A program made the position numbers and the translations under genes. Positions 22,392-54,392 of a stretch of 64,000 nt of DNA are shown piece by piece. Location of the stretch: positions 363,446-427,445 of the forward strand of contig JBKBPM010000001.1 in NCBI GenBank assembly GCA_046293175.1, in the 5' to 3' direction. The notes beneath the pieces are model-generated. The model searched no databases and was not told where the DNA came from. It saw only the letters and a list, made by a program, of their open reading frames with translations. Numbering within the stretch: the stretch's first letter is position 1; every line of letters begins with the position of its first letter. Source of the stretch: Minisyncoccia bacterium. GTDB lineage: Bacteria; Patescibacteriota; Minisyncoccia; Phycocordibacterales; UBA918.

Positions 22392-22396
22392 AGTTG

Positions 22397-23347: not shown

Positions 23348-23439
23348 GCGATACAGACTATTATCGAAAATATCTGACAAAAAAGCAATAACCACTGTTA
23401 GGATAACAGTGGTTATTGAAGTCAATTATGGTCTGTTAT

Positions 23440-26785: not shown

Positions 26786-26885
26786 AGTACATCCATTATG
26801 ACACAACTCGTTACATGCATTGGGCAGATAACCCCACCTATTAAAGGTAAACTTTGTACTAGAGCACACTAGTTGATTTAAGATT

Positions 26886-27195
26886 CAAGGTGAGAAATGG
26901 GATGGGGTAAAGAATGATGGGTATCATTCTTTACGAGGTTGCCAGCTATTTTGATTAAAAATAGCGACAACCTGTACTGGTCATGTAATGACCCATTTCG
27001 TAAGACGTTGCCAGCTACTTTATGAGAGAAACGAAATAAAGTAGTGACAAGGTGTGCTACTCCTCTAAGGAGGTGAGAAATTTTGAATTGTTTTAAAATG
27101 CTACCTAAAGTAAGGTTGTGGTAACTGAGAGACGTGGACAAAGCCATTAGTAATAGGCTTTGCTCACGGAAATTCTCACTAGTCAGCTTACACCT
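26886..27195. repeat. hairpin-rich intergenic repeat element, copy II (between ABC ATPase and permease genes)
   Basis: ggtgagaaatgg..., two sub-copies of the gccagcta hairpin (gctattttgattaaaaatagc; gctactttatgagagaaacgaaataaagtagt), then ctgagagacgtgga-caaagcc-attagtaata-ggctttg-ctcacggaaattc (hairpin 27139..27162 with compensatory changes relative to copies I and III). Confidence 0.7.
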
Positions 27196-27207
27196 CGTTT
27201 GTTTATT

Positions 27208-28530: not shown

Positions 28531-28559
28531 ACGTTTCTCTATTATGACATATCAGTACA

Positions 28560-28870
28560 AATGCAGTCGTCTCCCCTATCCCCATTAGTCTCCTCTTTAG
28601 GTTCTGAGAAATAAATGTAGTATGCAAGCGAAAGTAAGGTTTCAAAAATCAGTGTAATTCGAGGTGAGAAATGGAAAGGGACCATTTCGCAAGGCTCATT
28701 TAGAATCTTTTGAGTGATAACAAATAAAGAGCCAAATGAGTGGACAGCCTCTGTAAGAGGGGCGAGGAAATTATTGCTGCAAGATTTGAGAGACATGGAC
28801 AAAGGCATTAGGAATAGCCTTTGCTCACGGAAACTCGCCATAGTCGGCTACGGCCTCGTTGGCTCATTCC
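28560..28870. repeat. hairpin-rich intergenic repeat element, copy III (upstream of ABC ATPase gene)
   Basis: ggtgagaaatgg-aaaggga-ccatttc (28668..28688), cctct-gta-agagg (28748..28760), ctgagagacatgga-caaaggc-attaggaata-gcctttg-ctcacggaaactcgccat (hairpin 28800..28823), ...ggctcatt. Confidence 0.7.
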
Positions 28871-30345: not shown

Positions 30346-30371
30346 AAAATCATAAACAGTATACCACTTTA

Positions 30372-33300
30372 CTACGGTGACACCGGAGTAAAGACGTTGA
30401 TACCAGCGTGAGGTGCACTATTGACCCCAAACGGAACCTCAATACCCCAATAGATATTTGTGGTAACCGCTGGTGATGGTACCGTTGGCTTGGCAAGGTT
30501 AACATCTAGTGTCACCGGTGTTGATGATGACAAGAGTGAACAAACCGAACAGCCAGCGTACGTGAAGGTACTGGTGGCAAATTTTTGCTGATTTGCTGGA
30601 ATAATTGAGCTGCTACCGTCACTGAGGTCTGTTCCTTCGACTTCGATGTCAAAGGCGACGTTACCAGTGTTTGCAATGGTGGTAGTTGGGTTGTACGAAC
30701 CAGTGTTGTCCTGTGGTGCAAGTGATCCGTAATTGATACCAGAGTCAACGCTTAGGGCGCGCACGGTGTAAAGCTCAACACCAGCAGGTGGTGTGGCCAT
30801 ATCATATCCACCACTCGTATCACTCACCTCAAGGTACGCCAACCAAGTGTCACCGTTATCGTCGGTTGCTTCAGCGTGGAAGAAGATGTCGGCATAACAC
30901 TCAAAGGTACAGGTGTTGCCACTACAATTGGTAAATGAACACTTATTACCAATTGTCGAAACATAACAGTTGTTGTTGTTTGGCGTACAACTTGGACCAA
31001 CGCTACTTCGATAGATGGTACTTGTTCCATTTACCAAGTCAGCCACCCCATTAAAGTCAGTCACCGTACCAGTCGCATAGACTCGAGTAGTAGTACCTGG
31101 TAAGAGAGAGATATCAAACCCGTTGTTAAGTGCCACCGTACCGAAAGTTGGATCAAATTGGAGTCCAAGCTCAGCGACTTCGCCATAGAAATCAATTGGT
31201 GTTGCATCATTAACCACACGGAAACAGTAATTGTCGGTAGCGTTGAGGGTTGGGGTGATGACGTACTCAAGTTCGGTATAGTTATCGGCCGGCACCGTCA
31301 GTGCGCTCGACATATTTGATGGACTTTCAACTACCATACCTGGTGTAAACTGACCATTAATAGTCGTCAGTAAGTCAGTGGTTGGTGCCCCATCAGTAAC
31401 CTGAGTTGAAGTCTGCATACAGATTGGTGAAGAGCCACAGGAAGCTTGATTTGGTACTGCCACATAACTGCCGCTTGATACCGCTTCGCAACTCGGTGAA
31501 GTGCCTTTTGCTGCATATTGGAGTCGGTACGTTTGTCCAGTAACCGTCAATCCAGAATTTTCGATACCGATACGGAGACGACGTGTCACACCAGGGAGCC
31601 CACTGCCCAGAGCATTTTCTGCAGAAAGCCAGGTGGCTCCGCCATAGGTTTGTTTGGCACCAAATGTAATTCCTGGATTGATTGGACCGCGATCACTGAC
31701 ATGATAACTATCCCAGGCACCATTTTGCACCCAGAAGGTGAAGCCCATGCCACCGCTGGTGTACGAACTATCGGTAGCTGATGTGGTGGCAACGAGCGTA
31801 CCTGAAGGGTTATAAAGGTACACATCAATACGGTTGTTGGTTTGCCAATCGATTTCCACTTGGTACCAGCCTGTTGTGTAGGTCACCGTGGTAGAAGCCA
31901 AACGAGTACCAGAGATATCGTTGTCAGTCACATTCTTTGAGAGTGAAAGACGATCGGTACCAAAGAGCTCAAGACAGACCGCGTAGTTGTTGTTGGCAGT
32001 ACCTGGTGTCTGTACCCCAAAGAGCGCACAACCTTCATCAGCCGCGCCACCAGATATGTCAACGTACTGTCGATACCGGATAATCTGTCCTTGCGCGGTG
32101 AGGTTACCGGTACGGAAGATACCATCAGTCGTTCGACCTGATTTGTTTTGGGCTTCAAGGGCATAAGCACCACCATAGACTGGTGTTGTATCAGTTTGGA
32201 AGAGGCTTGTATCACCACTGTATTCAGTAATATTATTATCTTCAAAGTCATCACTGAAACTAAAAGTATTGGCAGCCGAACTTGAACTGGTTGAACTCGC
32301 ATTACCAAAGTACATAAAGAGATTAGTGTACGCATTTGGAGCTAGACTTGGTACTTCTACCCACACCACTGCTTCGGTACTGGCGACATACCGATCCACC
32401 CAGAAATCAAGTGGGGTAAGACCATCGCTACTGGTGAATCGGAGATCATCGAAGTCGGACTGCATCGCACTATCATACGGCACGGTGACGCGTACAGTTG
32501 TCGTTGCAAAGGTTGTTGCCGTAGTGTTTTCGACACGTACTCGCTCACGGTAAGTCCAAGCAAAGTTATACCACTCAGAATTTGGTGCCCCTTCTCCCCC
32601 ATCATCGGCTCGCCAACGAGAACTGGTTTGTGAGGTCAAGAGACAACCACTGTCATCAAAGCGAATCGCTCCACAGAGGCCACCAATGTCACTGTCAAAG
32701 GCTTCCCCGCCAATATTGCCGTAGTTACCACTAAAGCGCCACGCATTGGTCGTACTTCCCACCAAGGCTACGTTTGTACCGGTCCAACTATTACCAGCAT
32801 TAAAGCCAACGGCGGTAAAGATCTTTGAAGCGTTCGCATTTAATGCAGTGTCAGTAAGACTAATTAACGTACCACCATTTACCGCGAGATTGTAGTACGC
32901 ATTACTGAGATTGGTGATAGTGGGCGCGTTACTGAAGGAGAGACCACTACTATTAAGCGCATCAAAGCGGTAGTACTGGGCGTTAAATGTTCCGCCAGTA
33001 ACAAGGAATGCGTGGGTACCAGTACTGATAGCCCCAATGGTAGTACTTGCGCTCGCAGCACCGAGGATAGCGAGACTGCCGCTTTGTACCGTGGTGGTAC
33101 TATTTTGTGCCATGCGGACAGTCACCGCACGCTGACTCGGTCCGACCAGTGCAGCACCATCAAAGTCCGTACTGTATGACCAGTATTCACTGGTGGTGGC
33201 AACCGTAAAGTCGCCGTAGATATTAAGTGTACCATCAACAGCTCCATGATCCTGTGAGTAGAGTGAAGCTCCGGTACCAAGCGTCGTAGTAGCCACCGTA

Positions 33301-45300: not shown

Positions 45301-48300
45301 AAATTAGCATTTGATTCCCGAATAAGGGTTGGTGAAGAAAAGTCAGCATCGTCATCAATCACCACTTCGTATGATACGAGGTCGCCCAGTTCATCTGTAG
45401 CGGCAAATTCAAAAGTTGGTGACGTTGAAGCCATCTGTTCGTTGTCAAATGGTGCAATCAGTGTCGGTTCAAGTGGTGCCGCGTTGGTAATCAACCGTGG
45501 GTAGTTGTCATAGCTATTCAACACAGAACCATCAGCATACACGACACGGAAACAGTAACTCGTATTAGCAGCTGCATTGTTGTTTTGAAGTACAAAGTCC
45601 CATTCAGCATTTTGACCTACCAATAATGCATTACGATTGAGATTGGTAGGGTTGTACTCTTCATACGTCTCAGGGAACGTACTACTAGCCAGCAAAGTGC
45701 TTGGTAGCACTCGACCATCACTGATGATTTCTTCAGAGGCAACGGCATAAAAGCCCGTAGGGTTTGATTTGTTATTAAAGGTGGTTTGTATCCAGCCGTC
45801 ACTACGAACGATATTTGAAATAGATACTTCATCAATACCACCGGTAAAAAGTCGTCCACCTAATGGATCTTGTCCAATATCAAGAGCTGCATAGGTACCC
45901 GTCGAGTGGGTTACCGCATTAGTTCCACTTGCTACCCCCACCCCGGAGTGACGCCACATTACCGCTCGAGTCGGCTCAATGGTCAAGGTGGCCATAAATG
46001 GCGCACTAGAAGTTGGATAGGTCGGCCCCCCTGTCCAGTTGTACGTAGCAGCAGCATCACGCCAGTGGTAGCCGAGACGATTTGTATTCGATGGAATATT
46101 GATACCACTGGTTTCACCTGACGCGCGAGTCATTAAAAGACCATCAAAGGCGCCTTGGTTACCGGTTGAAGAAGCCCAGATTTGCCAGGTTGAGTTGAGG
46201 AAAGAACGATTAAAGCTTGAACCAAGATCGATATACTCATTGGTTCCATCAATTGCTTGGAAGCGACCAACAATACCGTTCTGACGATCGCCCACTTCCA
46301 TATTTTGTGATGTACCATTACTATTGCCGGTACTATCAATAAATTGTGGTGCTGTGGCAGTTGGACTTTGATCAAGGTGGTACACCGCCAAGAAGTTGTT
46401 ACTCCATACATTATTGCGACCATAGGTAGCTGAGACACTATAGCCACTGGCTGCACCATTGCCGTAGTACACATAAAAGTCAGTGTCGGTTGTTGTCGAA
46501 AGCGATGGGGCTCGGAAGTGGAGCTCACCAATATCACTACCCGTATCAAGCGAGACTAGTTCATATGGTACTTCAGTTACTCCGTCACTGGTGGTGATGC
46601 GGATATCGTCACCGTCACTTTGCACATTATCAAAGAATTGCGCAGGAAAATCATCGAGATTGAGGTAAACCGGGAAGTTTGTTACATCATTACCTGAAAC
46701 TAAAGAACTCTCAACTGTCACCTTAACCCGCCGTGGCCAAGAGGCACTGTACCAATCAGTACCAACGATTGAGTTCGCATATCCGCGCCAGGTTGCCGTT
46801 GTACTTCCAACCGCACCCACGTCTTGCCAACCGGTAGCAATATTACAGGAGACACCAGTTGCGTACTGTAACTTGAAGGCGGACGTACTCGTCGGCAACG
46901 TCACATTTGCCCCCTCAAGTGAGAGACGAAGACGGATCACATCGTTGAGACTGACCGCTTCTGCTGAAGTGAGTGCAGTATTTTCTGCCACATCGGTACC
47001 TCCTACCGGCCAGGCATCCGTCGGGGTAAAGACACTCGCGTTTGTATACCAGCGAAAATCATTTTGTACGAGTTTTGGCTTACGCACCCAAGCCACTGAC
47101 CAATCATCAAGACTCGCACTGGTGGCGCCAAACGTGGTCAAGGTGGCCTCAAGACAAATCTGACTGTATGTGGTGGTAGAAAGACCAGTCAAGTTAAGAG
47201 GCATAGCCGTACTGTCAAAACCTGCACTATTTCCTGCCAGTGCTCCGTCTGGTATATAGGTGTCACAAGTGGTCGTACTCGTGTATTTAAGCTTTACCGT
47301 TACGTCCGTTCCAAACGGCTCAGTTGAAGAGAACGTAAAATCACCCCAGGTTTGCTGGTTTGGCACCGCCGAAAAGACAATCGGCTGCGTCGTCACAGTA
47401 CTTTGAGTAAATTGGTAGCGCTTAGCAGCCATTTCAAACGTTTCAAATGGAGCACCGGCTATTGAAGATGGGTTTGGTACTATTGATTGTTTCGTTGACC
47501 AGCTGGTTCCGTTCCAGTACGTTGACTCTATTTCATCCCCCGCCACAGCATCATCGTGTGAGACTGAGACGATGGTGCCATCTCCAGCTCGTTCTGTCTG
47601 CACCCAAAATACACCAGTACCCGCTCCGACACCTGTAATGGGCTGAGGGGCTGACCATGATGATGTCGCATACACGCTATACCGTGCATTAGTTGTGTCC
47701 GAATAGGCGGCGAGCGTATACCCCGAGCGACCTGCTACCGTCTCATATTCACAATCAATTGGTCGCCCAGCCTGAGAGTTACCAGCCGTAGAAAAATCAT
47801 TATAGGTGCCGGTCCAGATACTACCATCCCACCGGATCGCTCCTGGACGAGCCGAATCATTGATGTAACACAACACCATGTTGTCTGAGTTTGGATCAGC
47901 CGAGAGTGTTCCCCATTCAAAGTCATTTTGCAGTGCCTGGGTGGCAGGAGCGGTCCAATCAAGACCCGTCCAAGTACGATAGATGAAACTATTTCCCGTA
48001 CCATTGGTGACTGCTACAATCGCTTGATCACCGGAAGTTTCATACTTCACCCCAATACCAGCTCTCGCTTCTTGACCAGCCTGTACCGAACCCATGACCC
48101 GACTATTACCAAAAGCCGAACCGTCCCACACGAGCATCTCGTAGTTGTTACCAACCGCCGCTCCACTATCGCGTACTACCAAAATCATTTCATCTGAGGT
48201 TGGATCAGACGCAATCTCAACATGGTTACAGACGTTGACGAGGCTGGTAGTAATACTACTTGTAGCTGACCAGGTAGAACCATTCCAAATACGATAGACC

Positions 48301-51300
48301 GGATCTTTAGTGTTACTACAAGACACCACCATGGCGTCACCCGAGACACTTTCATACCCAACGGCAATACCACGGCGGCCGACATTTGAGACAGTGTTCG
48401 TGATGAGTGTTTGATTACCCCATGAACTACTCGTTGCATTATAGACCTGCGCATAGGTGGCGTTTGATTGGTCCATGGTCACAAGAATATACTCATCTCG
48501 CTTCACTCCAGCAGCAGTGCGCACCCAGTTTATGGTACCCCCTACTGGAATTGCCGATTGCTTAATACCCCAACTTGTACCACCCCAAAGACGGTAACGT
48601 GGCGTATTGTTGGTGCCATCACCATAGGCAATGAGCATCTCGGTGTTGGTAGTCGAATTAACGACGACATTATCATTATTAGAAACACCACCAAATAAGG
48701 TGTTGGTATTAAACTGACCGCTTGTGGTCTGGTACCAATTCGGCACGGTATCCGCCGCATTTACTGTAAAGCTTTGGGTTGTCGAGTAGTCACCAAAACC
48801 ACCAGAACCGGTTACATCCCTGGCTCGCACACGCCAATAGTAGGTCGTCAGGTCGGTGAGTGTCTCACTGGGTTGTAACTGGTAGCGGATTTTTTGCCCT
48901 TCTGTAAATGGAGAAGTATCGCCACCCGAAACAGTGTTGTAAAAGCCAGCATCACTGCTTGAGACCCGTACGGTAGCAGTAGCAAAGGTTGATGAAGTTG
49001 AAATCGAAAATTCATACTCAATATCAGAGGTCCCATCTGGATCACTCGCAGTAAACTCAAAATATGGAGTAGTTGAAGCCAGGCGAGCATTATCAAACGG
49101 CACGCCATGCAATGTTGGTGCAGCCGGACGGAAATCAAGCGCAGCTTTTTTCCACAACATGAGTGTTCCTGGTGTCGTTGAACTTACCTGACCAGCAGTG
49201 GCCTCCTGCTGACTTTGGATAGAAATAATTTGTCCAGCCGTGACACCTTCAAGGAGAAACACGAGATTGCCAGAAGCTTCAGCGTGTCCATTTTGATTAC
49301 GAATAAAATTTGACTTTGTCTGGGCACCAGTGGTGGTTACACCATTAACAGTGACCGTAATGCGATTGTTGGTACGCGCAGTGGCACCAGTAAAAGCACC
49401 ATTGTATGTCAGGAGGTAATCACCACTGGCGTTGACAGTTATCTGGTGACTATTAACTGCGGTTGAATGTGTATAGGCGTTACTATCGTACGCCAGTTGC
49501 GTATTAAACCGTGACGAAGAAGCATTACTATTGTTAAAGTTCATGCCAGTTGTACCATTGAGGTAGTTGCCGGTGAGGGCAATCACACCGGTTGATGGTA
49601 ACTTTTGTATATAGATTGATCCAGCAAACCCTGGTGTCACCACCACATTACCACCACCCGCTTCTTGTTGTGTCGTTACTGTCAATACACTGTTAGTGGA
49701 GCTGGCGACCACAATACCAGACCAGTGAATACTCGAGTCACCATCGCTTTCCGTCGCTGCCGTTTCCATATATCCCTGCATAAATTGCGCTCCGGGTACA
49801 GCCATGCCATTGATGAGCACTTGTCCTTTTACGTTTGTTTGGACCGTATGGTTAACGCCGGTGAGTGGAATATTGATATGAACCATGTAGGTACCGGTGG
49901 CTGACAGTGTAATGTTTTGTGGCGATACGGTATTTGAGTGCACATAACCACTATCCTGGCGAGTTTCTACCCAGTCAAGTGCGTTTGCTGTCGCTGTGTT
50001 AAGGCTCGTGGTCGCTGTCGAACGGGTTGTGGTCGCGGCAAATACTGTATTGGTATCGTTAATATATTCGAGATACATCGAAGCCAGGCCGGTTACGTTG
50101 ACGGTGTCTCCTGCGTCGATAGTGTTGAGGTTTTCGACAAAGACTTCAATGTAATCGTTTGCGCTAACATCAGTGAGCAAGAATGCGACGTTTGAAGATG
50201 ACTCAGATTGTGCTCCAGCATTTTCAATGTAGCCACTACGTCCAAGACCTTCTTGGACGGCAATTCCATTCTTTCGTACTTCTATACCAGAACGAGTACG
50301 ACTCACATTAGCGTCAGTTCGCTGTACTGGCAAGTTGACCGAAACAAAGTAATCACCATTCTGACGAAGGGTTACTCGCTGTGAGTTGGTTGAGGTCGAA
50401 TGAGAATAATAGTAGTTATCAATTGAACTGGTTGACCACTGCATTGGACTTGGAGCTTCGTTTAGGTTTGTACCTGCAACAGTCCGCGTCCCTTTGAACC
50501 AACCGATATTGTTAAGAGCGTCAGAAGCAATTTGCCACTGCCGCAACTCGTGGAAGGTATCCATCTGGAGCGGTCCCAAAAGATACATATATGGACTTAT
50601 ATCCGGTGCGTCAAAGGTGTATGAGAGTGTAATCTCATCACCCTCATTAAGCGTAATATCCGACCAGGTTATCACACTGTACTGTGGAAGAGCAGTAATA
50701 GTGGCTCCTTCTAGTCCTTCTATAATAAAACCACGCGGTACTCGTTCGGTGATATCACCTGTGTAGGTTCGGTTGGCTTTAATATTGAGATCAACCTTAT
50801 ATGGTGCTGGTGGATAGATACGAGTTGGCGCAGTACGAGTGATGTCAAACGGAATGTAATCACGCACTTCAAATGAATCAGTAATTTTATGAACAACTTC
50901 CCCATTCACATTCAAATGCTGCAACTGAATCGTGTACTCACCCCACTCACCAGTATCTGTAAAGGTGGCCAGGTAGTCTGGCATATCAGTCACATTGTTG
51001 GCATTACATGAGCCAGACTGTTCGACCGGCACTTCATAGATGGTTCCTTTTGGATCAATAATCTTCATTTGCAGATTTGCATCACAAATCGTGTCACCAC
51101 TATCAGTCAACGCAGCAAGATTGAGTTGCACTTCTTCGTTCGGGAAGTACATACTCTTTTTTGTGTTCACCGCCAAAAGACCCCAATAGAATTCAAAGGT
51201 ATCGATGAACTTTTCACCATTTTCGAGTACTTCTACGGTGACTTCATATTTGCCTGGTTCAAGTGTGTACGGGAGTTGCTGTACCTCCATAGACCAAGTC

Positions 51301-52724
51301 AGATCATCGTAGTATTTAATATCAAACAAAGCTGGTATCTCAGTTCCTTCTGGATTTTTTATACTCACCCGATCAACAACAAAGGTGTTTTCGGTAAAGA
51401 TAGCTCGGAAGATACGATTGAGGAAACCTTGTTGTGGGTCGTATGAGAGCGTAAACATCGGTGACTTGCCAAGTACCTGATCGAGATCGGCATTGACAAG
51501 CTCATTGAGACTTGGTTCTTTCAAATCACGCTCGTAGCTAATGGTATCGGTTGGCGCTTTAAAATCTGAAGCTTCATAAAAGCGGCCAGAGGTGACATCA
51601 AGCCACACCCCATCTACAAACACCTCTTCAGTCTCAGTTTCGATACCTTCGTAGGCCACTTTAACGCGGAGATTTGAGAGGTCATTACTATATGGTGAAA
51701 CAGCGAGTGCTACAAGGAAATGATCACCATTGAGACTATTAGAAATTTCGCCATCCACATCAATGACAGTACCTGGGAGGTAGGTTGCACCAGCATCAAG
51801 CGAGTACGATACAACAAACCGCTGAATGGCACTACCTGGCTTAGCTTTGGCTGCCAGCGACAGGCGGAGCTGCACCGTATCAAGTACCGTACCACTGGTG
51901 AACTCTGGCAAGGCAAAATTATCAAACGTGAGTGACCGAGTCTTACAGCCGGCTTCAATCAAACATGGCGAAAGTCCAAAGAGATCCGTAGTCGATGTGG
52001 CAGTCAACTCAACCAGAGCTGATTCCTCTTCATTACTGGTAGTAGCAGCTTCACCATCTACTGCCGGCATGACAGCAGTTGTCTCTTCACCAGCTACAGG
52101 TTCAGATGTAGGTAGCGATTCTGGAGTAGGAAGTACCGTTTCTTCCACTGGTTCTGTTGGACTTTCATTTACTACCTCTTCACTCACCACTACATCATCA
52201 GAAACCGGTGTGGTTTCATCAAATTGCGCCAGCGGGTATGTCTCGGCCTTTAGTGAAGTTTCAAGTGGCGTTTCAGTCGGTGCTGGTTGTGGAGCAGGCT
52301 CTGGTGTTGGCTCTGGTTCCGAAGTGGACTCTGCCGGTGTTTCAGTTGGTTTTGGTTCAGTGGTCGGAACATCAGGAACAACACCGTCAGCTGGAGTATC
52401 AGGTGAAGGGTTTTGATTTGGTGCGTCTCCTGTTGGTGTTTGTGGTTCTGTTGGAGCGAAATATTTAAAGTAGGCAGAATTGCTGCTAGTGAAGTTTTGC
52501 AAAATACCATCACCGTCAACATCTTGAATCAAAACTTCGTTCGGATTATCAAAGCCATCTGACACAACGCCACCTGGCACTACGAGCAATTCCTCGGTGG
52601 TATAGACGGTGCGATCAATATACGAGTACGCCAAAAAGCCACTGATACAGACAAATACCAGCAGAACCCGCAAAGTGAGGCGGTTTAGCTTAGGAATTAC
52701 ATGCGACACAACTCTAGCGCCCAA
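30372..52724 (-). CDS. giant multidomain surface protein (7450 aa)
   Basis: Single uninterrupted 22,353-nt ORF; the residue count matches exactly. Approximate layout by aa: signal anchor (1-40); acidic PT-rich linker (95-250); three ~140-aa jelly-roll-like repeats (770-1190); FN3-like (1200-1325; 2420-2545; 2685-2805); two 8-bladed BNR/Asp-box-like propellers (1370-1760; 2855-3220; blades like YRIWNGSTWSATSSI); DUF2341-like + LamG-like modules (1996-2320; 4415-4745; 6700-7020); Gly-rich region (3420-3900); parallel beta-helix-like ~95-aa repeats (3940-4410; 4750-6690); Cys-rich C-terminal domain (7200-7450) ending NIYWGIEVPFGVNSAPHAGINVFTPVSP. The annotated start is TTG; the true start is uncertain. 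Confidence 0.9.
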   Translation of the reverse strand: MGARVVSHVIPKLNRLTLRVLLVFVCISGFLAYSYIDRTVYTTEELLVVPGGVVSDGFDNPNEVLIQDVDGDGILQNFTSSNSAYFKYFAPTEPQTPTGDAPNQNPSPDTPADGVVPDVPTTEPKPTETPAESTSEPEPTPEPAPQPAPTETPLETSLKAETYPLAQFDETTPVSDDVVVSEEVVNESPTEPVEETVLPTPESLPTSEPVAGEETTAVMPAVDGEAATTSNEEESALVELTATSTTDLFGLSPCLIEAGCKTRSLTFDNFALPEFTSGTVLDTVQLRLSLAAKAKPGSAIQRFVVSYSLDAGATYLPGTVIDVDGEISNSLNGDHFLVALAVSPYSNDLSNLRVKVAYEGIETETEEVFVDGVWLDVTSGRFYEASDFKAPTDTISYERDLKEPSLNELVNADLDQVLGKSPMFTLSYDPQQGFLNRIFRAIFTENTFVVDRVSIKNPEGTEIPALFDIKYYDDLTWSMEVQQLPYTLEPGKYEVTVEVLENGEKFIDTFEFYWGLLAVNTKKSMYFPNEEVQLNLAALTDSGDTICDANLQMKIIDPKGTIYEVPVEQSGSCNANNVTDMPDYLATFTDTGEWGEYTIQLQHLNVNGEVVHKITDSFEVRDYIPFDITRTAPTRIYPPAPYKVDLNIKANRTYTGDITERVPRGFIIEGLEGATITALPQYSVITWSDITLNEGDEITLSYTFDAPDISPYMYLLGPLQMDTFHELRQWQIASDALNNIGWFKGTRTVAGTNLNEAPSPMQWSTSSIDNYYYSHSTSTNSQRVTLRQNGDYFVSVNLPVQRTDANVSRTRSGIEVRKNGIAVQEGLGRSGYIENAGAQSESSSNVAFLLTDVSANDYIEVFVENLNTIDAGDTVNVTGLASMYLEYINDTNTVFAATTTRSTATTSLNTATANALDWVETRQDSGYVHSNTVSPQNITLSATGTYMVHINIPLTGVNHTVQTNVKGQVLINGMAVPGAQFMQGYMETAATESDGDSSIHWSGIVVASSTNSVLTVTTQQEAGGGNVVVTPGFAGSIYIQKLPSTGVIALTGNYLNGTTGMNFNNSNASSSRFNTQLAYDSNAYTHSTAVNSHQITVNASGDYLLTYNGAFTGATARTNNRITVTVNGVTTTGAQTKSNFIRNQNGHAEASGNLVFLLEGVTAGQIISIQSQQEATAGQVSSTTPGTLMLWKKAALDFRPAAPTLHGVPFDNARLASTTPYFEFTASDPDGTSDIEYEFSISTSSTFATATVRVSSSDAGFYNTVSGGDTSPFTEGQKIRYQLQPSETLTDLTTYYWRVRARDVTGSGGFGDYSTTQSFTVNAADTVPNWYQTTSGQFNTNTLFGGVSNNDNVVVNSTTNTEMLIAYGDGTNNTPRYRLWGGTSWGIKQSAIPVGGTINWVRTAAGVKRDEYILVTMDQSNATYAQVYNATSSSWGNQTLITNTVSNVGRRGIAVGYESVSGDAMVVSCSNTKDPVYRIWNGSTWSATSSITTSLVNVCNHVEIASDPTSDEMILVVRDSGAAVGNNYEMLVWDGSAFGNSRVMGSVQAGQEARAGIGVKYETSGDQAIVAVTNGTGNSFIYRTWTGLDWTAPATQALQNDFEWGTLSADPNSDNMVLCYINDSARPGAIRWDGSIWTGTYNDFSTAGNSQAGRPIDCEYETVAGRSGYTLAAYSDTTNARYSVYATSSWSAPQPITGVGAGTGVFWVQTERAGDGTIVSVSHDDAVAGDEIESTYWNGTSWSTKQSIVPNPSSIAGAPFETFEMAAKRYQFTQSTVTTQPIVFSAVPNQQTWGDFTFSSTEPFGTDVTVKLKYTSTTTCDTYIPDGALAGNSAGFDSTAMPLNLTGLSTTTYSQICLEATLTTFGATSASLDDWSVAWVRKPKLVQNDFRWYTNASVFTPTDAWPVGGTDVAENTALTSAEAVSLNDVIRLRLSLEGANVTLPTSTSAFKLQYATGVSCNIATGWQDVGAVGSTTATWRGYANSIVGTDWYSASWPRRVKVTVESSLVSGNDVTNFPVYLNLDDFPAQFFDNVQSDGDDIRITTSDGVTEVPYELVSLDTGSDIGELHFRAPSLSTTTDTDFYVYYGNGAASGYSVSATYGRNNVWSNNFLAVYHLDQSPTATAPQFIDSTGNSNGTSQNMEVGDRQNGIVGRFQAIDGTNEYIDLGSSFNRSFLNSTWQIWASSTGNQGAFDGLLMTRASGETSGINIPSNTNRLGYHWRDAAATYNWTGGPTYPTSSAPFMATLTIEPTRAVMWRHSGVGVASGTNAVTHSTGTYAALDIGQDPLGGRLFTGGIDEVSISNIVRSDGWIQTTFNNKSNPTGFYAVASEEIISDGRVLPSTLLASSTFPETYEEYNPTNLNRNALLVGQNAEWDFVLQNNNAAANTSYCFRVVYADGSVLNSYDNYPRLITNAAPLEPTLIAPFDNEQMASTSPTFEFAATDELGDLVSYEVVIDDDADFSSPTLIRESNANFSQFTNLASPSERSQYSSGQTIQFIPNTGLTDGVTYWWRVRAKDDFGSNTYGNWSEAKSFTINSATVITTWYQTTGDQFNTNSLNDAITSTTTNDTGINTGFTAATTTTTEIDYDNREIGNAWGSINFNQNVTSGTIRHYVEYEVSANTFELVPDTDLPGNSSGFTSSPISIANLDTRTYNVLRITSVFSGNSTLPRLLDMTVTWSQKIEPPTLISLFDNAKTATVTPAFTFTTTDPQNDDLQYEVQISSTADFASPSTFLSGVDAGFTNVTTPADTNPYTSGNTVRYQTQTPLTNGVTYWWRARARDPGGNNSWSNYATPFSFTVDTATNVSVWYQTTGDQFATNDNVDIETVAGGAQVTSIISGAMTAYGIGTAQAPQFRTWNGSTWSSAQSAETVGAQIRWTQLKAATTRPEYALGTLGTDLDINIQIYDALTESWGNIFEIVDNATESTKRRFDIGYETVSGRLMAVACTGNDAVYAIWNGTSWSATSSIDLVKAADCEWVKLASDPTSNEMIVVFRHNNASTPDYEALVWNGSSWGNSNRFGDVSANSNEAIVIEYEESGDQAVLALPNGTVNMPWKTWNGSTWSATSTVALGNVMTWGSLKRDEGSDRMILCYMDADTDIGVLRWTGSGWGTFTEMTTTGNDNRGLPVDCEFQTTPGTAEGEVIVAYSDTVAARYQTYSVLTGTSSGEFSLDTVNNSWRIQTVRGGDSNIHMLAFDDGSNPDRYDTSRWDGVTWTARENFSTSPSITTLPFDGSLTIAAQIYPSFTSGAIRSTAINFEDGVSPRWERVRFTDTTPGLSDVLYRVYYETTPGNFVLIPDSALPGNAAGFTNSPIDLSNLDKNIYAVLKLDAELLCDSGNCPSIQDWSVEWSEGLTVSGSAFEYDQSTLVATGTVAIAVNGVLQSGKTAQIAVGTTTQQMVYSTAGTSTFTVPPGVTNVTVKAWGAGGGAGGGGTQYAGATGGGGGFVGGTLTTIPGENLTIHVGGGGGGGVTGAPPGGGGGGGATSVMRASTPLFVAGAGGGGGSVAGGISYVGVGTACAVSGASCTPTIPAGTAVDDVYIAVLHSRTNTAHTCTANCTGWTEFSSQAGSAGEGRLSVWYYRRTGAVPGNPTFGGPATESYTGRIWAYRGVTTTGNPYDVVGTNTAVTVANTVFTGTDLNATVADAMVVHVGGSMDNNTWGPGGGSCDIPTNADANFYSANANGTDNSVFLCYDNNPVGAPGQLGAPTMTQASVGADVGRYFTFALKPHSVTGTLAGAGGVGGGLVGGDGVSVTGSTAGTGGTQSTGGAIGGGNATVGSAYNGGSGSSGAGGGAGGAGGIHGGGAGGAGASSTLAAGGAGGGAGYYGGGGGASGAGIYQASAGGGGGSSYITTSGVTATSTVSGSSTSPGLPGNNTDSDYGGGAGSGGTSATSTNGGNGNPGRVVITWSTVSAAGSWSIPNVSAVAGDVITVFMQNASGTDEAVGTTVYDGSGDITGMVLSKRHLTIGSNDNTTITNAQLALYANSANEDIFFSADGGNAITLCAESTCGDARLRVLSGSTYAPGADTSVINFQNNGTFAPATSTFRISNLWNNQGTFTTGLSTIIFTATTSTQTPVNASSSLFFHNVTFGEGSGNATFSLTKPLIASGNVTMNFGTLARGTSSINIGGNLSLGANGTFSGLGTTTFDGAGSSLWGDAKSAASSTNVGNVVIDGTAKTITLSGNVGSESITIGADDTLNASGSGFNINVVRAWTNNNLFVPQSGTVTFVGTSTGVIARGTSAFNNLSFTGAGGNWSFSTSTLVLNGTLTIATGTVTLPTGTTTIAGSFLNTGGQFAHNNGEVRMTSSVAGRTITQRATNFLNAFYDLTFAGAGSWTYSESAATTTRAHRIQSGTVTMPSGTLTVGGDFAVTGSGAFAHNNGEVILLVQDANQISTNGSSFNHLRTRSGVGSWYNNSWTSRMAITISASQVAETVTDFPVYVDLATLGSAFFAGVKSDGSDIRVTTSDGVTEVPYELVSINTGSLSGELHFKAPTISNVTNTTFYIYYGNSAASAYAVTDPFGRNNVWTNGYLAVYHLDESPTASAPQYVGSTGSTTGTSNNMEVGDRVTAQVGRGQSIDGTNEFIQTTFAASMATSTWSVWMRPNGAQSAYDGVVFSRGAVTTGLGINGTAGNLGYHWNDTVATYGWNGAPTYLQNQWFMAALVVNPTTATIYRFATSGSASSSNSTTHASSTINDLKFGQDDAGGRFFSGIIDEIRLSNVARTNGWLTTEYNNQISASTFYATSSSQARFARTFTDTNATILGNFVLDTGGDTTFPTGVLSVGGSFDNNATFFNASGTVRFNSIAGAETIAAGNSNFATLEFNSAGGDFTITEAATSTVAINLITATQFTLNSGISLTASGTFSQTMSGTSTTWTGSILRLIGGDHSMHAKTFSGDVYGTLFVDGDTDVAMWNSSAATYTTNGTGSIYSQDHAGVDGDLNIYGNYIRSTGTEHWAYATDFDGTVLGSPRQVDVRVASGSSIGFTAASLNLTGTTSATTTVAALTGSFSLNATNSIVTARNFSVASTGPAGFGLLGSTTLSQFDDGYVEVTPGTSGLRIDGTTVNTNPAKQFLRVAFATTTAGTGSNVTFTGTSTSFVWFKEGTGNLYGEAFDGGDTNPGAIRFDDSSYLITVSGRVLRSDGSAALGAPVCDGVTPNVRVVVNSGSYTAQTSCNAATGAYSFSNVAFIGDPKITVYLNTNGGVTGAAVTKTPTTDITNFDVYAYQLITRHEGAVPLSIADLTLFNTASDTDLRFTATTTPSTSLTVFANNGLFVWASTTFTPGGPVTLAGNASSSAFEGSLTLATSSQFVAAGTDTHSLSGRLVVGTNATITAASSTFVFTATTTGKSITAAATQNFHNLSFTGVGGAWNITAPLSLTGDMTITAGTVTGTNNISLLNGQLTGNGTLSLGAGTTTIARTNTLGGTTPWTFANLVLGNGSMAGTTTPASAATTTVSGRLTVSAAHVYDVGATAINLTGSGTVFSVAGTYRSGTGLVTYSGANATVLGTTYYDLAIGTTVGSSTFTTSGVGILVNRNLTIGNGTASSTFTTNQSDPVLTVSGDVFVATASTLSLSDTATTTIAGSIDANGTVLANGGVVAFTGSGTHTIAMGNSPLARTRINGTGSFTVTESATSTQSFILQNHSLFRVATGTTLAVAGVFENQLGGAATDFPGTLYFYGGGNIAVNQKTTADTYSTLSVASDTRIRLWNSSATTYNALGGIYSQDHNNTNGLLHIYGTFTETTASDYWSYATDFDGASLTGSERVVTVAFASGASYNLLGGSLSVVGAANASTSINNQGSGTYNVTIGGSGTTNWNYATIRNATSTGIVFTGIPTVTDFSRVDIEVAANSGTGITVGATVLNNNPAKNFTNNSFATSSGVSAATNVTATGTAVSSWRFTNHIGSIDGEAYDNDPAGDPGYIVWDDSAALITVSGNVYSDEGVTVSPVCDGVTQNILLRVAGLTTYTASCDPGTGAYSISNVAFSPADTLTVYIDNNIRKAVTVSADPISSISNMHLYENRVIVRHENTSPLSIADMAVWDSSDDGDILFTAVDAGSDTLTLPADQKLLIWSGKTFEPNGNVTLSGGGGGGAQDGTLEAQANATWRALGTETHSIGGSFIFGPGAIFIAGQSTTTFTTTGAGRTIDVNGGPFYNVAFTGSGSWTVTDATFTTTRSFTQSAGAVTFGSGTTTIGASFNATGGSFSMPGTGLAFVSSSTGNIVRFDDATVPALYFTGAAGSWSMTDTNATTTGSFVISNTGTVTLPSGALAVGGSFTNASGTVTHNTADLYMTSAADASITTRGSDLFALRKTGVGTITITDASATFRDDVVISAGAFISATNTLSVGGSFLVTGGTFDHASGTVLFNATASGKTINASTSPFYNVQFASASGGWTWQGNATTTNNVTLTTASSFTKEAGTTLSIGGVFTNLVGGGATTWINTIISLTNSAPYTINTKSAGGDDYATLAISSADLRLWNSTVATTTLGTGASLYSQDHGAVDGTLNIYGDFTVATTSEYWSYSTDFDGAALVGPSQRAVTVRMAQNSTTTVQSGSLAILGAASASTTIGAISTGTHAFLVTGGTFNAQYYRFDALNSSGLSFSNAPTITNLSNAYYNLAVNGGTLISLTDTALNANASKIFTAVGFNAGNSWTGTNVALVGSTTNAWRFSGNYGNIGGEAFDSDIGGLCGAIRFDDSGCLLTSQTSSRWRADDGGEGAPNSEWYNFAWTYRERVRVENTTATTFATTTVRVTVPYDSAMQSDFDDLRFTSSDGLTPLDFWVDRYVASTEAVVWVEVPSLAPNAYTNLFMYFGNASSTSSSSAANTFSFSDDFEDNNITEYSGDTSLFQTDTTPVYGGAYALEAQNKSGRTTDGIFRTGNLTAQGQIIRYRQYVDISGGAADEGCALFGVQTPGTANNNYAVCLELFGTDRLSLSKNVTDNDISGTRLASTTVTYTTGWYQVEIDWQTNNRIDVYLYNPSGTLVATTSATDSSYTSGGMGFTFWVQNGAWDSYHVSDRGPINPGITFGAKQTYGGATWLSAENALGSGLPGVTRRLRIGIENSGLTVTGQTYRLQYAAKGTSPSCEAVSSGSYVAVPNQASCGSSPICMQTSTQVTDGAPTTDLLTTINGQFTPGMVVESPSNMSSALTVPADNYTELEYVITPTLNATDNYCFRVVNDATPIDFYGEVAELGLQFDPTFGTVALNNGFDISLLPGTTTRVYATGTVTDFNGVADLVNGTSTIYRSSVGPSCTPNNNNCYVSTIGNKCSFTNCSGNTCTFECYADIFFHAEATDDNGDTWLAYLEVSDTSGGYDMATPPAGVELYTVRALSVDSGINYGSLAPQDNTGSYNPTTTIANTGNVAFDIEVEGTDLSDGSSSIIPANQQKFATSTFTYAGCSVCSLLSSSTPVTLDVNLAKPTVPSPAVTTNIYWGIEVPFGVNSAPHAGINVFTPVSP
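30375..31124 (-). other. Cys-rich C-terminal domain of the giant ORF ending in the YWGIEVP motif, shared with 23440..25317 and 6980..13141
   Basis: aa about 7200-7450: SVGPSCTPNNNNCYVSTIGNKCSFTNCSGNTCTFECYADIFFHAEATDDNGD...IPANQQKFATSTFTYAGCSVCSLLSS...TTNIYWGIEVPFGVNSAPHAGINVFTPVSP. Confidence 0.6.
32654..38474 (-). other. long array of ~95-aa parallel beta-helix-like repeats within the giant ORF (approx.)
   Basis: aa about 4750-6690. Recurrent pattern ...F.NL.FTG.GG.W..S...L.L.G.LTI..GTVT.P.G..T..GSF.N.GG.F.HN.G.V.. occurs more than 15 times. A shorter array lies at aa about 3940-4410 (nt about 39494..40904). Confidence 0.5.
41024..42467 (-). other. Gly-rich low-complexity region of the giant ORF (GGxGG repeats) containing short (CCG)n tracts
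   Basis: aa about 3420-3900: AWGAGGGAGGGGTQYAGATGGGGG..., GSGSSGAGGGAGGAGGIHGGGAGGAGASS..., interrupted by a Cys-containing island (ACAVSGASCTPT...HTCTANCTGW). Nucleotide tracts of ccgccgccgccg occur near 41211, 41236 and 42321. Confidence 0.6.
45765..46739 (-). other. DUF2341-like + LamG/ConA-like lectin module (copy 1 of 3) within the giant ORF (approx.)
   Basis: WPRRVKVTVESSLVSGNDVTNFPVYLNLDDFPAQFFDNVQSDGDDIRITTSDGVTEVPYELVSLDTG...FYVYYGNGAAS followed by a ~220-aa LamG-like block. Copies 2 and 3 lie at nt about 38489..39482 and 31664..32627 (SRWRADDGGEGAPNSEWYNFAWTYRERVRVENTT...LRFTSSDGLTPLDFWVDRYV...NLFMYFGNAS). Confidence 0.55.
47445..48617 (-). other. BNR/Asp-box-like 8-bladed beta-propeller domain within the giant ORF (approx.)
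   Basis: aa about 1370-1760. Blades: RLWGGTSWGIK, YNATSSSWGNQ, YRIWNGSTWSATSSI, LVWDGSAFGNS, YRTWTGLDWTAP, IRWDGSIWTGT, YSVYATSSWSAP, TYWNGTSWSTK. A second propeller lies at nt about 43067..44162. Confidence 0.55.
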
Positions 52725-52748
52725 AAAAACTTTTGGGTTACATACAGT

Positions 52749-52781: not shown

Positions 52782-52811
52782 AGCTAATTTATTGTGGATT
52801 GTTTAGCTCAC

Positions 52812-54365: not shown

Positions 54366-54392
54366 AAGAACAATTCAGGATTACGGCGAGAG

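What the first reader, a model, noticed from the sequence alone, without database searches (positions are those of the whole stretch)
30372..52724. 22.4-kb single ORF encoding a 7450-aa mosaic surface protein
One uninterrupted reading frame occupies 35% of the window. Modules are listed in the feature entry above; notable points are two BNR-like eight-bladed propellers, three DUF2341-like+LamG lectin-like units, and tens of ~95-aa parallel beta-helix-like repeats.

The arrangement suggests an extended fibre with several lectin-like heads. Proteins of this size, together with cohesin/dockerin and Csc-like partners, fit a host- or prey-attachment organelle of an episymbiont.
Basis: partly seen in the sequence, partly recalled or inferred. 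Interest (0 to 1): 0.7.

Follow-up and report, generated by a model that had tools for sequence, protein, structure and literature searches.

The report
Conserved giant lectin-studded surface fibre gene
This is a real 22.4-kb gene for a 7,450-residue surface fibre with sugar-binding-type modules; it belongs to a giant-protein family kept, with the same neighbouring genes, across hundreds of species of tiny, small-genome Paceibacteria, so it is a good candidate for how they touch other cells.

Summary
The ORF is real. It lies at window 30372-52724 on the minus strand, is 7,450 codons long and has no stop. Chance would give this at about 1e-163. Two independent contigs match its ends at 100% identity, and internal DNA repeats are only 70-81% identical. 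Relatives are intact and colinear in at least 53 GTDB species, and full-length calls of 5,300-7,700 aa exist. The organism is a Patescibacteria (CPR) bacterium of the Paceibacteria/Kaiserbacteria group.

- Two eight-bladed beta-propellers are present, but they are not BNR-like. They lack Asp-boxes and best match fucose-lectin propellers (PLL/AAL).
- Three DUF2341 plus ConA/LamG units are present.
- The beta-helix stalks hold about 16 repeats of 77-97 aa, not "tens of ~95 aa".

New here: the last ~900 aa define the family, and the final ~260-aa Cys-rich domain is almost always at the extreme C-terminus. A co-encoded 625-aa membrane protein shares that domain. The order giant, FN3 protein, MacB-type ABC transporter, 625-aa protein, 342-aa protein, dockerin protein is conserved wherever the fetched flank reaches, among the 80 genomes examined. 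The lectin cassettes are optional inserts in a conserved scaffold.

Best reading: a membrane-anchored, carbohydrate-binding adhesion fibre. Function is inferred. It is a new member of a known kind.

The parts
30372..52724 (-). Whole ORF, 7450 codons (probable start is the GTG at 52709, giving 7445 aa), with its stop codon at 30372-30374
52614..52691 (-). N-terminal basic stretch plus one ~20-residue hydrophobic helix (aa ~12-37). It is a Sec signal-anchor or a signal peptide, followed by the family's juxtamembrane motif (ours EELLVVPGGVVSDGF).
   Evidence: Whether it is cleaved was not tested.
51990..52457 (-). Pro/Thr/Glu-rich low-complexity linker (aa ~90-245)
   Evidence: Read directly from the sequence. 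Not conserved in 26 giant relatives.
50505..51992 (-). N-terminal region (aa 245-740), assumed beta-sandwich from sub-threshold MG2 and GBS104-like Ig hints only
   Evidence: Present in 19-21 of 26 giant relatives.
49125..50507 (-). Three tandem ~154-aa repeats (aa 740-1200), with a sub-threshold SusF/SusE-like hint. This is an accessory cassette, present in 5 of 26 relatives.
48735..49124 (-). FN3/Ig-like domain before propeller 1 (aa 1201-1330). It is a paralogue of the Ig_Rha78A_N-type domains at aa 2400-2820.
47385..48611 (-). Beta-propeller 1 (aa 1372-1780): eight ~50-aa blades with the motif Y-R-x-W-N-G-S-x-W-S
   Evidence: blades; AlphaFold, pLDDT 82.5; best PDB matches are PLL/PHL/AAL fucose lectins; no Asp-box
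46770..47387 (-). Post-propeller beta-sandwich region (aa 1780-1985); the AlphaFold model reaches only aa 1900. Conserved in 26 of 26 relatives.
45690..46772 (-). DUF2341 plus LamG unit 1 (aa 1985-2345)
   Evidence: Pfam DUF2341; 51% identical to unit 2. Accessory, present in 14 of 26 relatives.
44265..45527 (-). FN3/Ig_Rha78A_N-like domains with an inserted sandwich (aa 2400-2820)
42975..44189 (-). Beta-propeller 2 (aa 2846-3250): eight blades. The block aa 2691-3390 is 39% identical to aa 1201-1900.
   Evidence: Accessory, present in 11 of 26 relatives.
40995..42557 (-). Glycine-rich domain (aa 3390-3910), matching Pfam Gly_rich_2 and a phage-tail PHROG, with a ~230-aa insert. It is a lineage-specific insertion.
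   Evidence: Absent from several orthologues and partly present in L010.
39510..40997 (-). Beta-helix stalk block 1 (aa 3910-4405), repeat period ~80 aa
   Evidence: The fold is assumed from sequence similarity to block 4 (dot plot), which was modelled.
38445..39512 (-). DUF2341 plus Laminin_G_3 unit 2 (aa 4405-4760)
   Evidence: Pfam, both above threshold. Accessory, present in 11 of 26 relatives.
32625..38447 (-). Three super-repeats (aa 4760-5205, 5205-6000, 6000-6700). Each is a beta-helix stalk followed by a ~230-300-aa 'cap' module (YSQDH...DFDG; caps 39-43% identical to each other).
31620..32627 (-). DUF2341 plus ConA-like lectin-fold unit 3 (aa 6700-7035), part of the family-defining C-terminal module
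31155..31622 (-). Disulfide-containing Ig-like domain (aa 7035-7190), also found in the 2053-aa ORF 6980-13141
30375..31157 (-). C-terminal domain (CTD, aa 7190-7450): two beta-sandwiches with six conserved Cys within 31 aa (five invariant, one nearly invariant in the family alignment), ending in ...YWGIEVP...G.N.FT. It is the hallmark of the family.
28870..30345 (-). Conserved downstream partner 1: secreted FN3/PAP_N-repeat protein (491 aa)
25577..28530 (-). Conserved downstream partners 2 and 3: ABC ATPase (440 aa) and MacB_PCD/FtsX-type permease (430 aa)
23440..25317 (-). Conserved downstream partner 4: 625-aa protein with an N-terminal TM helix; its C-terminal 300 aa are homologous to the giant's CTD
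   Evidence: (hhalign probability 100%, E 7e-57)
21285..23425 (-). Conserved downstream partners 5 and 6: a 342-aa protein with TM helices at both ends, and a 368-aa dockerin-bearing protein

Best explanation
The ORF is one genuine gene of a Patescibacteria (CPR) bacterium of the Paceibacteria/Kaiserbacteria group. It encodes a Sec-exported protein of about 7,445 residues. A single N-terminal hydrophobic helix holds it in the cytoplasmic membrane, and a Pro/Thr-rich linker lets it leave the wall.

The rest is an all-beta fibre. My rough estimate of its length, from domain counts, is 100-200 nm. It has a conserved scaffold of FN3/Ig-like sandwiches and four beta-helix stalk blocks with cap modules. 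It ends in a family-defining tail: DUF2341, a ConA-like lectin fold, an Ig domain and a Cys-rich C-terminal domain (CTD).

Optional carbohydrate-binding-type cassettes are inserted into this scaffold. They are two eight-bladed lectin-type propellers, two further DUF2341-LamG units, three 154-aa repeats and a phage-tail-like glycine-rich domain.

The most likely function is multivalent, long-reach binding of glycans on another cell or on a matrix. It probably works together with the co-conserved neighbours: the FN3 protein, the MacB-type ABC transporter, the 625-aa membrane protein that carries the same CTD, and the dockerin and cohesin proteins.

What is shown: gene integrity, family membership, folds, architecture and synteny. 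What is inferred: membrane topology, fibre length, sugar binding, the adhesive role and any functional link to the ABC transporter.
For: Gene reality:
- intact frame, chance ~1e-163; 100% identical independent contigs; diverged repeats.
- nearly all of the GTDB loci with a full 10-kb upstream flank are open for all 3,333 upstream codons; only 5 of the 80 loci hit a stop.
- 26 full-length relatives of 5,000-7,696 aa, including ones of 7,456 and 7,440 aa.

Taxonomy.

Export and anchor: a single N-terminal hydrophobic segment and no other TM helix. The same layout plus a conserved juxtamembrane motif is seen in relatives.

Folds:
- AlphaFold pLDDT 90.1 for aa 6251-7450 and 82.5 for aa 1201-1900.
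- The propeller best matches PLL/PHL/AAL fucose lectins, TM 0.62-0.68.
- The beta-helix matches EtpA, Fap2 and Pet adhesin stalks.
- Pfam finds DUF2341 three times, plus Laminin_G_3, Ig_Rha78A_N and Gly_rich_2.

Scaffold versus cassettes.

Cluster: identical gene order in essentially all 80 species loci. CTD shared with the 625-aa neighbour.

Literature:
- Very large surface proteins with lectin, FN3 and propeller domains are typical of CPR and are read as adhesins (PMC5220378, PMC13059738).
- 82 of the 149 NCBI Patescibacteria proteins over 4,000 aa carry FhaB and/or DUF2341 domains (PMC11809585).
Against: - No binding, localisation or expression data exist.
- No sugar-binding residues were checked.
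- The lectin-fold matches have only 8-15% sequence identity, and the propeller has 8 blades against 7 or 6 in the matched lectins.
- Family conservation is high for a host-specific adhesin: 41-49% median identity across very different species, with fixed synteny. This fits a housekeeping envelope structure equally well.
- The strongly conserved end is the C-terminus. That is unexpected if it is simply the free distal tip.
- Short family members (about 1,290 aa, e.g. P0026) appear to have a cleavable signal peptide and no obvious anchor. This hints that the C-terminal module, not the N-terminus, may hold the protein on the cell.
- In two relatives the gene is split by frame breaks.
Confidence: 0.6

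Rival explanations
1. It is a conserved envelope structure rather than a host-specific adhesin. The fibre would be part of the cell's own surface architecture, such as a coat, spacer, S-layer-associated scaffold or cell-wall organiser. Its lectin folds would bind the cell's own glycans, and it would be built or serviced by the adjacent MacB/FtsX-type ABC system.
For: - 221 GTDB species genomes carry a relative, and the CTD is found in 2,112 representative clusters.
- The scaffold modules are present in 26 of 26 giants at 41-49% identity.
- The gene order is invariant, and the ABC ATPase is 74-96% identical in most loci (47-50% in the most distant ones).
- FtsEX/MacB-type transporters are known, from general knowledge, to do mechanical work on envelope partners.
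Against: - The optional lectin cassettes vary between species, as expected for adaptation to external ligands.
- The nearest structural analogues of the stalk and heads are adhesins and lectins.
- No peptidoglycan- or S-layer-binding domain was detected in the giant.
Confidence: 0.2
2. The orientation is reversed, or the protein is part of an assembled appendage. The conserved C-terminal module would be the cell-proximal docking or assembly end. It would be held by the CTD-sharing 625-aa membrane protein, the FN3 protein or the ABC system, or it would be joined to a Pam-like donor-strand pilus as a tip adhesin. The variable N-terminal part would be the distal, ligand-binding end after signal-peptide cleavage.
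For: - The CTD ends within 12 aa of the C-terminus in 212 of 215 proteins, as expected for a terminal sorting or assembly domain.
- The CTD is shared with a co-encoded membrane protein.
- Short family members have a signal peptide that looks cleavable and no other anchor.
- Two window ORFs give weak hits to the CPR Pam pilin model, and the neighbouring ORF 58657-59760 has a C-terminal TM helix.
- The Pam pilus paper describes tip pilins and an RbmA-like anchor (bioRxiv 10.64898/2026.03.03.709456). RbmA is among the Foldseek matches of the C-terminal model.
Against: - Profile comparison of the giant CTD with the Pam-pilin-like neighbour gives a probability of 0.2%.
- The Pam hits are far below the curated cutoff (24 and 19.5 bits against 55).
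- The giant's N-terminal hydrophobic segment is long (~20 residues) and is followed by a conserved motif in relatives. This suggests a retained anchor.
- The AlphaFold model of the CTD is complete and confident on its own.
Confidence: 0.1
3. It is a polysaccharide-processing enzyme scaffold. The beta-helix (pectate-lyase-like) and ConA-like (GH16/PL-like) folds would be catalytic, and the protein would harvest host or environmental glycans.
For: - A GH18 gene lies in the window.
Against: - No glycoside-hydrolase or lyase family was detected by Pfam or NCBIfam in any tile.
- The best ConA-fold matches are non-catalytic CBMs and lectins, and the best beta-helix matches are adhesin stalks.
Confidence: 0.05
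4. It is an assembly artefact or a pseudogene. The single frame would come from mis-joined repeats, or the real gene would be interrupted.
For: - The middle 11.6 kb has no second same-sample contig here.
- One Logan contig ends inside the gene.
- Two relatives have the gene in pieces.
Against: as set out above. In addition, the breaks in the two relatives lie at different positions.
Confidence: 0.02

Closest known systems
Very large DUF2341- and/or FhaB-containing proteins of Patescibacteria (PMC11809585), and the large lectin/FN3/propeller surface proteins noted in CPR genomes (PMC5220378, PMC13059738)
   Same: Same phylum. Size is above 4,000 aa. DUF2341, ConA/lectin, FN3 and propeller content. 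N-terminal signal or TM segment. Read as adhesion or host-interaction proteins.
   Different: Those reports are censuses. They define no orthologous family, no C-terminal domain and no gene cluster. The P. danicum proteins had no full-length homologues, whereas this protein has hundreds of colinear orthologues.
RTX giant adhesins secreted by type I systems (MpIBP of Marinomonas, PMC5550230; SiiE, PMC6272769; LapA)
   Same: Multi-thousand-residue modular fibres in which extender domains present sugar- or peptide-binding modules. They are encoded next to an ABC transporter.
   Different: The giant has no RTX nonapeptides. It has an N-terminal Sec-type signal rather than a C-terminal T1SS signal. 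The neighbouring ABC is MacB/FtsX type, not a T1SS exporter, and no MFP or TolC domain was detected in the window ORFs scanned. The organism is a CPR bacterium.
Beta-helical adhesin stalks of two-partner and autotransporter systems (EtpA 8vba, Fap2 9qe7, Pet 4om9)
   Different: No Pfam family of these systems, including TPS and autotransporter barrel domains, appeared in any tile. This is similarity of fold only.
Fucose-binding beta-propeller lectins (Photorhabdus PLL/PHL/PLL2-5, BP39L/CV39L; fungal AAL/AFL/AOL)
   Same: Best structural matches of propeller 1 (Foldseek E 1e-10 to 1e-8, target TM 0.62-0.68). They share a Trp-rich blade motif of the W-x-G-x-x-W type (I recall this motif in RSL/AAL from memory).
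   Different: Eight blades here against seven or six. Identity is 11-14%. No Pfam hit to those families. Sugar-binding residues were not examined.
DUF2341-containing large proteins in archaeal type IV pilus loci, likened to the PilY1 tip adhesin (PMC4858521)
   Same: DUF2341 in large secreted proteins proposed to sit on a filament tip.
   Different: No pilin-like class III signal at the N-terminus. No T4P-associated Pfam domain turned up in the window ORFs scanned.
Pam pilus of CPR bacteria (bioRxiv 10.64898/2026.03.03.709456)
   Same: A CPR-specific surface filament built of Ig-like domains. Two ORFs in this window give weak hits to its pilin model.
   Different: The giant's CTD shows no profile similarity to those ORFs. 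The hits are sub-threshold. The Pam system is reported mainly in Saccharimonadia and Microgenomatia.
Giant1-5 extracellular proteins of Apilactobacillus kunkeei (PMC12863079, abstract only)
   Same: Surface proteins of 3,000-8,000 aa that occupy several percent of a small genome.
   Different: Firmicutes. Domain content was not compared here.

Membership tests
Paceibacteria giant-protein family defined here by the C-terminal module and CTD | ~900-aa C-terminal module (cap, DUF2341, ConA-like, Ig, Cys-rich CTD) at the extreme C-terminus | tested here: met
   89 database relatives, mostly at 42-84% identity over most or all of the query. Many invariant Cys, Trp and Gly positions. The CTD is terminal in 212 of 215 proteins.
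Paceibacteria giant-protein family defined here by the C-terminal module and CTD | Conserved downstream order: FN3 protein, ABC ATPase, MacB permease, CTD-sharing ~625-aa protein, ~340-aa TM protein, dockerin protein | tested here: met
   Same order and strand in essentially all 80 GTDB loci where the flank reaches that far, and in L003 and L004.
DUF2341 (Pfam PF10102) domain proteins | Match above the gathering score | tested here: met
   Three sites, scoring 24.7, 28.3-28.9 and 62.3 bits against a cutoff of 23.4.
ConA-like lectin / LamG superfamily | Laminin_G_3 match or jelly-roll fold | tested here: met
ConA-like lectin / LamG superfamily | Carbohydrate-binding site residues or a Ca2+ site | not tested
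BNR / sialidase-type propeller | Asp-box S-x-D-x-G-x-T-W repeated in the blades | tested here: not met
   0 strict and 3 relaxed matches against 2.3 expected, none of them in the propellers. No BNR Pfam hit. Sialidases rank below the lectins in the fold search.
PLL/AAL-type lectin propellers | Beta-propeller fold with a Trp-rich blade motif | tested here: met
   Top Foldseek hits. All eleven W-x-G-x-x-W motifs lie in the two propellers.
PLL/AAL-type lectin propellers | Seven (PLL) or six (AAL) blades, and sequence-family membership | tested here: not met
   Eight blades here. No Pfam hit to those families at E<=0.01.
Type I-secreted RTX adhesins | RTX nonapeptide repeats near the C-terminus and a T1SS ABC/MFP locus | tested here: not met
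   No GGxGxDxUx motif. The neighbouring ABC is MacB_PCD/FtsX type.
Sortase-anchored (LPXTG) Gram-positive adhesins | C-terminal LPXTG, then a hydrophobic stretch, then a basic tail | tested here: not met
   The only LPSTG is internal, at aa 1042. The C-terminus has no TM helix.
Cellulosome-type cohesin/dockerin components | A cohesin or dockerin domain in the protein itself | tested here: not met
   None in any tile, and no dockerin-like motif. Neighbouring genes do carry them.
WxL / Csc surface complexes | A WxL domain in the protein, with CscA (DUF916/WxLIP) partners | tested here: inconclusive
   No WxL hit in the giant or in 40 relatives. One sub-threshold WxLIP_PGBD hit lies in ORF 4375-6069. 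The C-terminal endings of several window proteins resemble each other, but this was not tested further.
Pam pilus subunits | Match to CPR_Pam_pilin_C at or above 55 bits | tested here: not met
   No hit for the giant. The neighbours score 24.4 and 19.5 bits. hhalign of the CTD against the neighbour gives probability 0.2%.

The most novel reading that the evidence does not exclude
The giant is the main component of an undescribed surface apparatus found across the Paceibacteria. The ~260-aa Cys-rich CTD would be a new terminal docking or sorting domain. It is shared by the giant and a co-encoded 625-aa membrane protein, and it is present in more than 2,000 sequence clusters. The invariant neighbouring MacB/FtsX-type ABC transporter, FN3 protein, and dockerin, cohesin and pilin-like proteins would assemble, anchor or mechanically operate the fibre. 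On this reading it is a host-contact organelle specific to this large uncultured group.
Probability: 0.3. Interest if true: 0.75.

Novelty: new member of a known kind. Interest (0 to 1): 0.55.

Why it matters
Paceibacteria are among the most abundant and least understood CPR lineages. Very little is known about how they attach to other cells. Related closed genomes are about 1 Mb, so one 22-kb gene is roughly 2% of such a genome. Its scaffold, C-terminal module and neighbours are kept across hundreds of species.

This makes the family and its cluster a concrete, testable candidate for the cell-contact machinery of the group. The optional lectin cassettes may mark differences in ligand or host. 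The conserved CTD is a handle for antibodies, for pull-downs and for finding the family in metagenomes.

For genome annotation, the analysis also shows that the '~1,000-aa DUF2341 proteins' in many MAGs are mostly 3' fragments of a giant gene.

Tried and rejected
I used ~900-1,200-aa segments instead.
2. PDB sequence searches with the whole protein and with the family profile found nothing.
4. The BNR reading was rejected by the Asp-box test.
5. I considered that the ~1,000-aa 'stand-alone' relatives meant a conserved gene boundary or a programmed frameshift. This was rejected: the breaks in L003 and L004 lie at different positions, and nearly all species have an open frame.
6. I considered that only the C-terminus is conserved, because the N-terminal query gave only 14 hits. 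This was revised: full-length relatives share most scaffold modules and an N-terminal motif.
7. The idea that the CTD is a Pam-pilin-like domain was not supported by hhalign.
8. RTX, LPXTG and dockerin motifs are absent from the giant.
9. No tRNA or Rfam element lies in the window.
10. Literature searches found no description of this family or cluster.
Full report
**Observation.** The ORF listing reports an ORF at 30372..52724 on the minus strand, 7,450 aa long, with a TTG start. Its translation has only the terminal stop. It covers 34.9% of the window. With the local base composition, a stop-free run of 7,450 codons has a probability of about 1e-163. The other five frames reach at most 302 codons, and the window contains no N. 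The first plausible start is the GTG at codon 6 (window 52709), which is where the gene was called on an independent contig.

**Is the assembly sound?** Two Logan contigs from run SRR31360863 are 100% identical to window 44371-57123 and to window 28804-32734. Together they cover the first ~2,780 and the last 786 codons. DNA-level internal repeats are only 70-81% identical, so collapse or expansion of repeats is unlikely. The middle part has no second contig from the same sample here. It is colinear, without frame breaks, with orthologues from other species. For example, aa 3847-7450 aligns at 80% identity in L007. In L009, L012, L016 and L084, aa ~2450-3390 aligns and is followed directly by aa ~3910-7450.

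**Organism.** The relatives are named Candidatus Paceibacterota, Kaiserbacteria, Nomurabacteria, Parcubacteria or Minisyncoccia. The window is therefore from a Patescibacteria (CPR) bacterium of the Paceibacteria group. All real genes in the 64 kb lie on the minus strand.

**Architecture.** This comes from self-comparison, Pfam, two AlphaFold models and fold searches.
- aa ~12-37: basic stretch plus one hydrophobic helix. This is the only hydrophobic segment in the protein.
- aa 90-245: Pro/Thr/Glu-rich linker.
- aa 245-740: region with only sub-threshold Ig/MG-like hints, assumed to be beta-sandwich.
- aa 740-1200: three ~154-aa repeats.
- aa 1201-1985: an FN3-like domain, an eight-bladed propeller and a beta-sandwich. 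The model covers aa 1201-1900. The block aa 1201-1900 is duplicated at aa 2691-3390, at 39% identity over 686 aa.
- aa 1985-2345 and 4405-4760: DUF2341 plus LamG units, 51% identical to each other.
- aa 3390-3910: a glycine-rich domain (Pfam Gly_rich_2, and a weak phage-tail PHROG hit).
- aa 3910-6700: four beta-helix stalk blocks. The last three are each followed by a ~230-300-aa 'cap' module, and the caps are 39-43% identical.
- aa 6700-7450: DUF2341, a ConA-like domain, an Ig domain and a ~260-aa Cys-rich C-terminal domain (CTD).

- The propellers are real. Each has eight ~50-aa blades with the motif Y-R-x-W-N-G-S-x-W-S, and all eleven W-x-G-x-x-W motifs of the protein lie in them. The model (pLDDT 82.5) has about 30 strands in that region.
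- The propellers are not BNR-like. Asp-box motifs are not enriched, with 3 relaxed matches against 2.3 expected and no strict match. The best structural matches are Photorhabdus PLL/PHL and fungal AAL/AFL fucose lectins, with sialidases below them.

**The family.**
- The C-terminal 898 aa find 89 database proteins, mostly at 42-84% identity over most or all of the query.
- Many of these are listed as ~1,000-aa 'DUF2341 domain-containing proteins'. Walking the frame upstream in 80 GTDB species loci shows otherwise. Only five loci meet a stop, and nearly all loci with a full 10-kb flank stay open for all 3,333 upstream codons.
- A profile of the CTD scored against 1.84 billion representative proteins finds 2,112 matches, 785 of them at E<=1e-30.
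- Of the 227 matching proteins retrieved, 26 are 5,000-7,696 aa long, including two of 7,456 and 7,440 aa. The CTD ends within 12 residues of the C-terminus in 212 of 215 cases.
- These giants start with Met, a TM helix and a shared motif (about EERTIHVFP..V...GW). The window protein has EELLVVPGGVVSDGF at that place.
- A module census of the 26 giants shows a conserved scaffold. The FN3-like domains, the post-propeller sandwiches, all stalk and cap blocks, unit 3, the Ig domain and the CTD are present in 26 of 26, at 41-49% median identity.
- The same census shows optional cassettes: propellers in 11 of 26, unit 1 in 14, unit 2 in 11, and the 154-aa repeats in 5.
- The glycine-rich block is missing from several orthologues.
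- Two relatives have the gene in pieces, at different positions. One of them is a closed Kaiserbacteria genome. I read these as sequencing errors or pseudogenes, not as a conserved boundary.

**Context.**
- The downstream order is giant, FN3/PAP_N protein, ABC ATPase (440 aa), MacB_PCD/FtsX permease, a 625-aa protein, a 342-aa protein, a dockerin protein and a 408-aa protein. This order is the same in essentially every one of the 80 loci where the flank reaches that far (annotations).
- The 625-aa protein has an N-terminal TM helix. Its last 300 aa are homologous to the giant's CTD (BLASTP E 3e-17; hhalign probability 100%, E 7e-57).
- Cohesin and dockerin proteins flank the gene.
- The giant itself has no cohesin, dockerin, RTX or C-terminal LPXTG feature.

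**Mechanism.** What is shown:
- an intact, conserved gene;
- an exported all-beta protein with a single N-terminal hydrophobic segment;
- stalk-like beta-helices;
- lectin-type folds;
- a terminal conserved module;
- a fixed gene cluster.

What I infer: the N-terminal helix anchors the protein in the membrane. The fibre extends roughly 100-200 nm (my estimate from domain counts). The propellers and ConA-like units bind glycans multivalently. The optional cassettes tune ligand range. The likely role is contact with another cell or a matrix.

Two features keep me from higher confidence. First, the class-wide conservation and synteny would also fit a housekeeping envelope structure. Second, the best-conserved part is the C-terminal end, which it shares with a neighbouring membrane protein. 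That could mean this end docks onto a conserved partner rather than being a free tip. A link to the recently described CPR Pam pilus was considered, because two window ORFs give weak hits to its pilin model. The CTD shows no profile similarity to them.

**Comparison with what is known.**
- Very large surface proteins with lectin, FN3 and propeller domains are a recognised feature of CPR genomes (PMC5220378, PMC13059738).
- 82 of the 149 NCBI Patescibacteria proteins over 4,000 aa carry FhaB and/or DUF2341 domains (PMC11809585).
- DUF2341 proteins in archaeal pilus loci have been likened to tip adhesins (PMC4858521).

The protein is therefore a new member of a known kind. I found no description of the orthologous family, its CTD or the conserved cluster with a MacB-type transporter.

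**Verdict.** Interest is moderate (0.55). A higher-value reading, a Paceibacteria-wide surface apparatus, is not excluded (p about 0.3).

Noticed in passing
window 19173-20399 and 59876-60997 (minus strand): Two paralogous secreted proteins (54% identical) give weak, sub-threshold hits to NCBIfam NF058581 'CPR_Pam_pilin_C'. They score 24.4 and 19.5 bits against a cutoff of 55, and the second hit spans the whole model. Pam pili were reported mainly in Saccharimonadia and Microgenomatia, so a distant Pam-like pilin in a Paceibacteria genome would be of interest.
   Followed up: partly
window 4375-6069, 5981-6967 and 58657-59760 (minus strand): Three paralogous proteins. ORF 4375-6069 and ORF 58657-59760 have TM helices in their C-terminal parts. 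ORF 4375-6069 has a sub-threshold WxLIP_PGBD (DUF916/CscA-like) hit plus a LytR_C domain. ORF 58657-59760 lies next to the Pam-pilin-like ORF. They may be chaperone-like (PamC/D-like) or Csc-like partners.
   Followed up: partly
window 6980-13141 (minus strand): A second large ORF (2,053 aa) has no Pfam or NCBIfam hit. It shares three domains with the giant: its aa 639-784 with giant 7048-7191, 1506-1605 with 1885-1983, and 1638-1695 with 2356-2413. It has an N-terminal hydrophobic segment.
   Followed up: partly
window 21285-30345 (minus strand), and loci L005-L084: The gene cluster downstream of the giant keeps the same order and strand in essentially all 80 species loci. It comprises the FN3 protein, a 440-aa ABC ATPase with an unexplained ~200-aa C-terminal extension, the MacB/FtsX permease, the 625-aa and 342-aa proteins, and the dockerin protein. 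The ATPase is the best-conserved gene, at 74-96% identity in most loci.
   Followed up: partly
window 52748-52782: A perfect 16-bp GC-rich palindrome lies in the 88-nt gap between the cohesin gene and the giant gene. The terminator scan flagged it only on the plus strand. On the coding (minus) strand it is not followed by a T run.
   Followed up: no
L003 (JAWKSP010000002.1) and L004 (CP064968.1, closed 1.05-Mb Kaiserbacteria genome): The orthologous giant gene is annotated in pieces: 2998+2498+60+983 aa in L003 and 5626+994+467+513 aa in L004. The pieces are separated by frame changes and one in-frame TGA. Many '~1,000-aa DUF2341 proteins' in public MAGs are therefore 3' fragments of a giant gene.
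   Followed up: yes
P0026 and P0020 (locus L040): Short family members (~1,290 aa) combine a signal peptide that looks cleavable, an Ice_binding-like beta-helix and an Ig domain with the same ~900-aa C-terminal module. The module is thus reused with a quite different N-terminal part.
   Followed up: partly
window 40995-42557 (aa 3390-3910 of the giant): The glycine-rich domain (PF21722, with a weak phage-tail PHROG hit) carries a ~230-aa non-glycine insert at aa ~3510-3740. Several orthologues lack the whole block, so it looks like a recent insertion.
   Followed up: partly
window 1-64000: Every credible gene in the 64-kb window is on the minus strand. The window has no tRNA and no Rfam match.
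   Followed up: no
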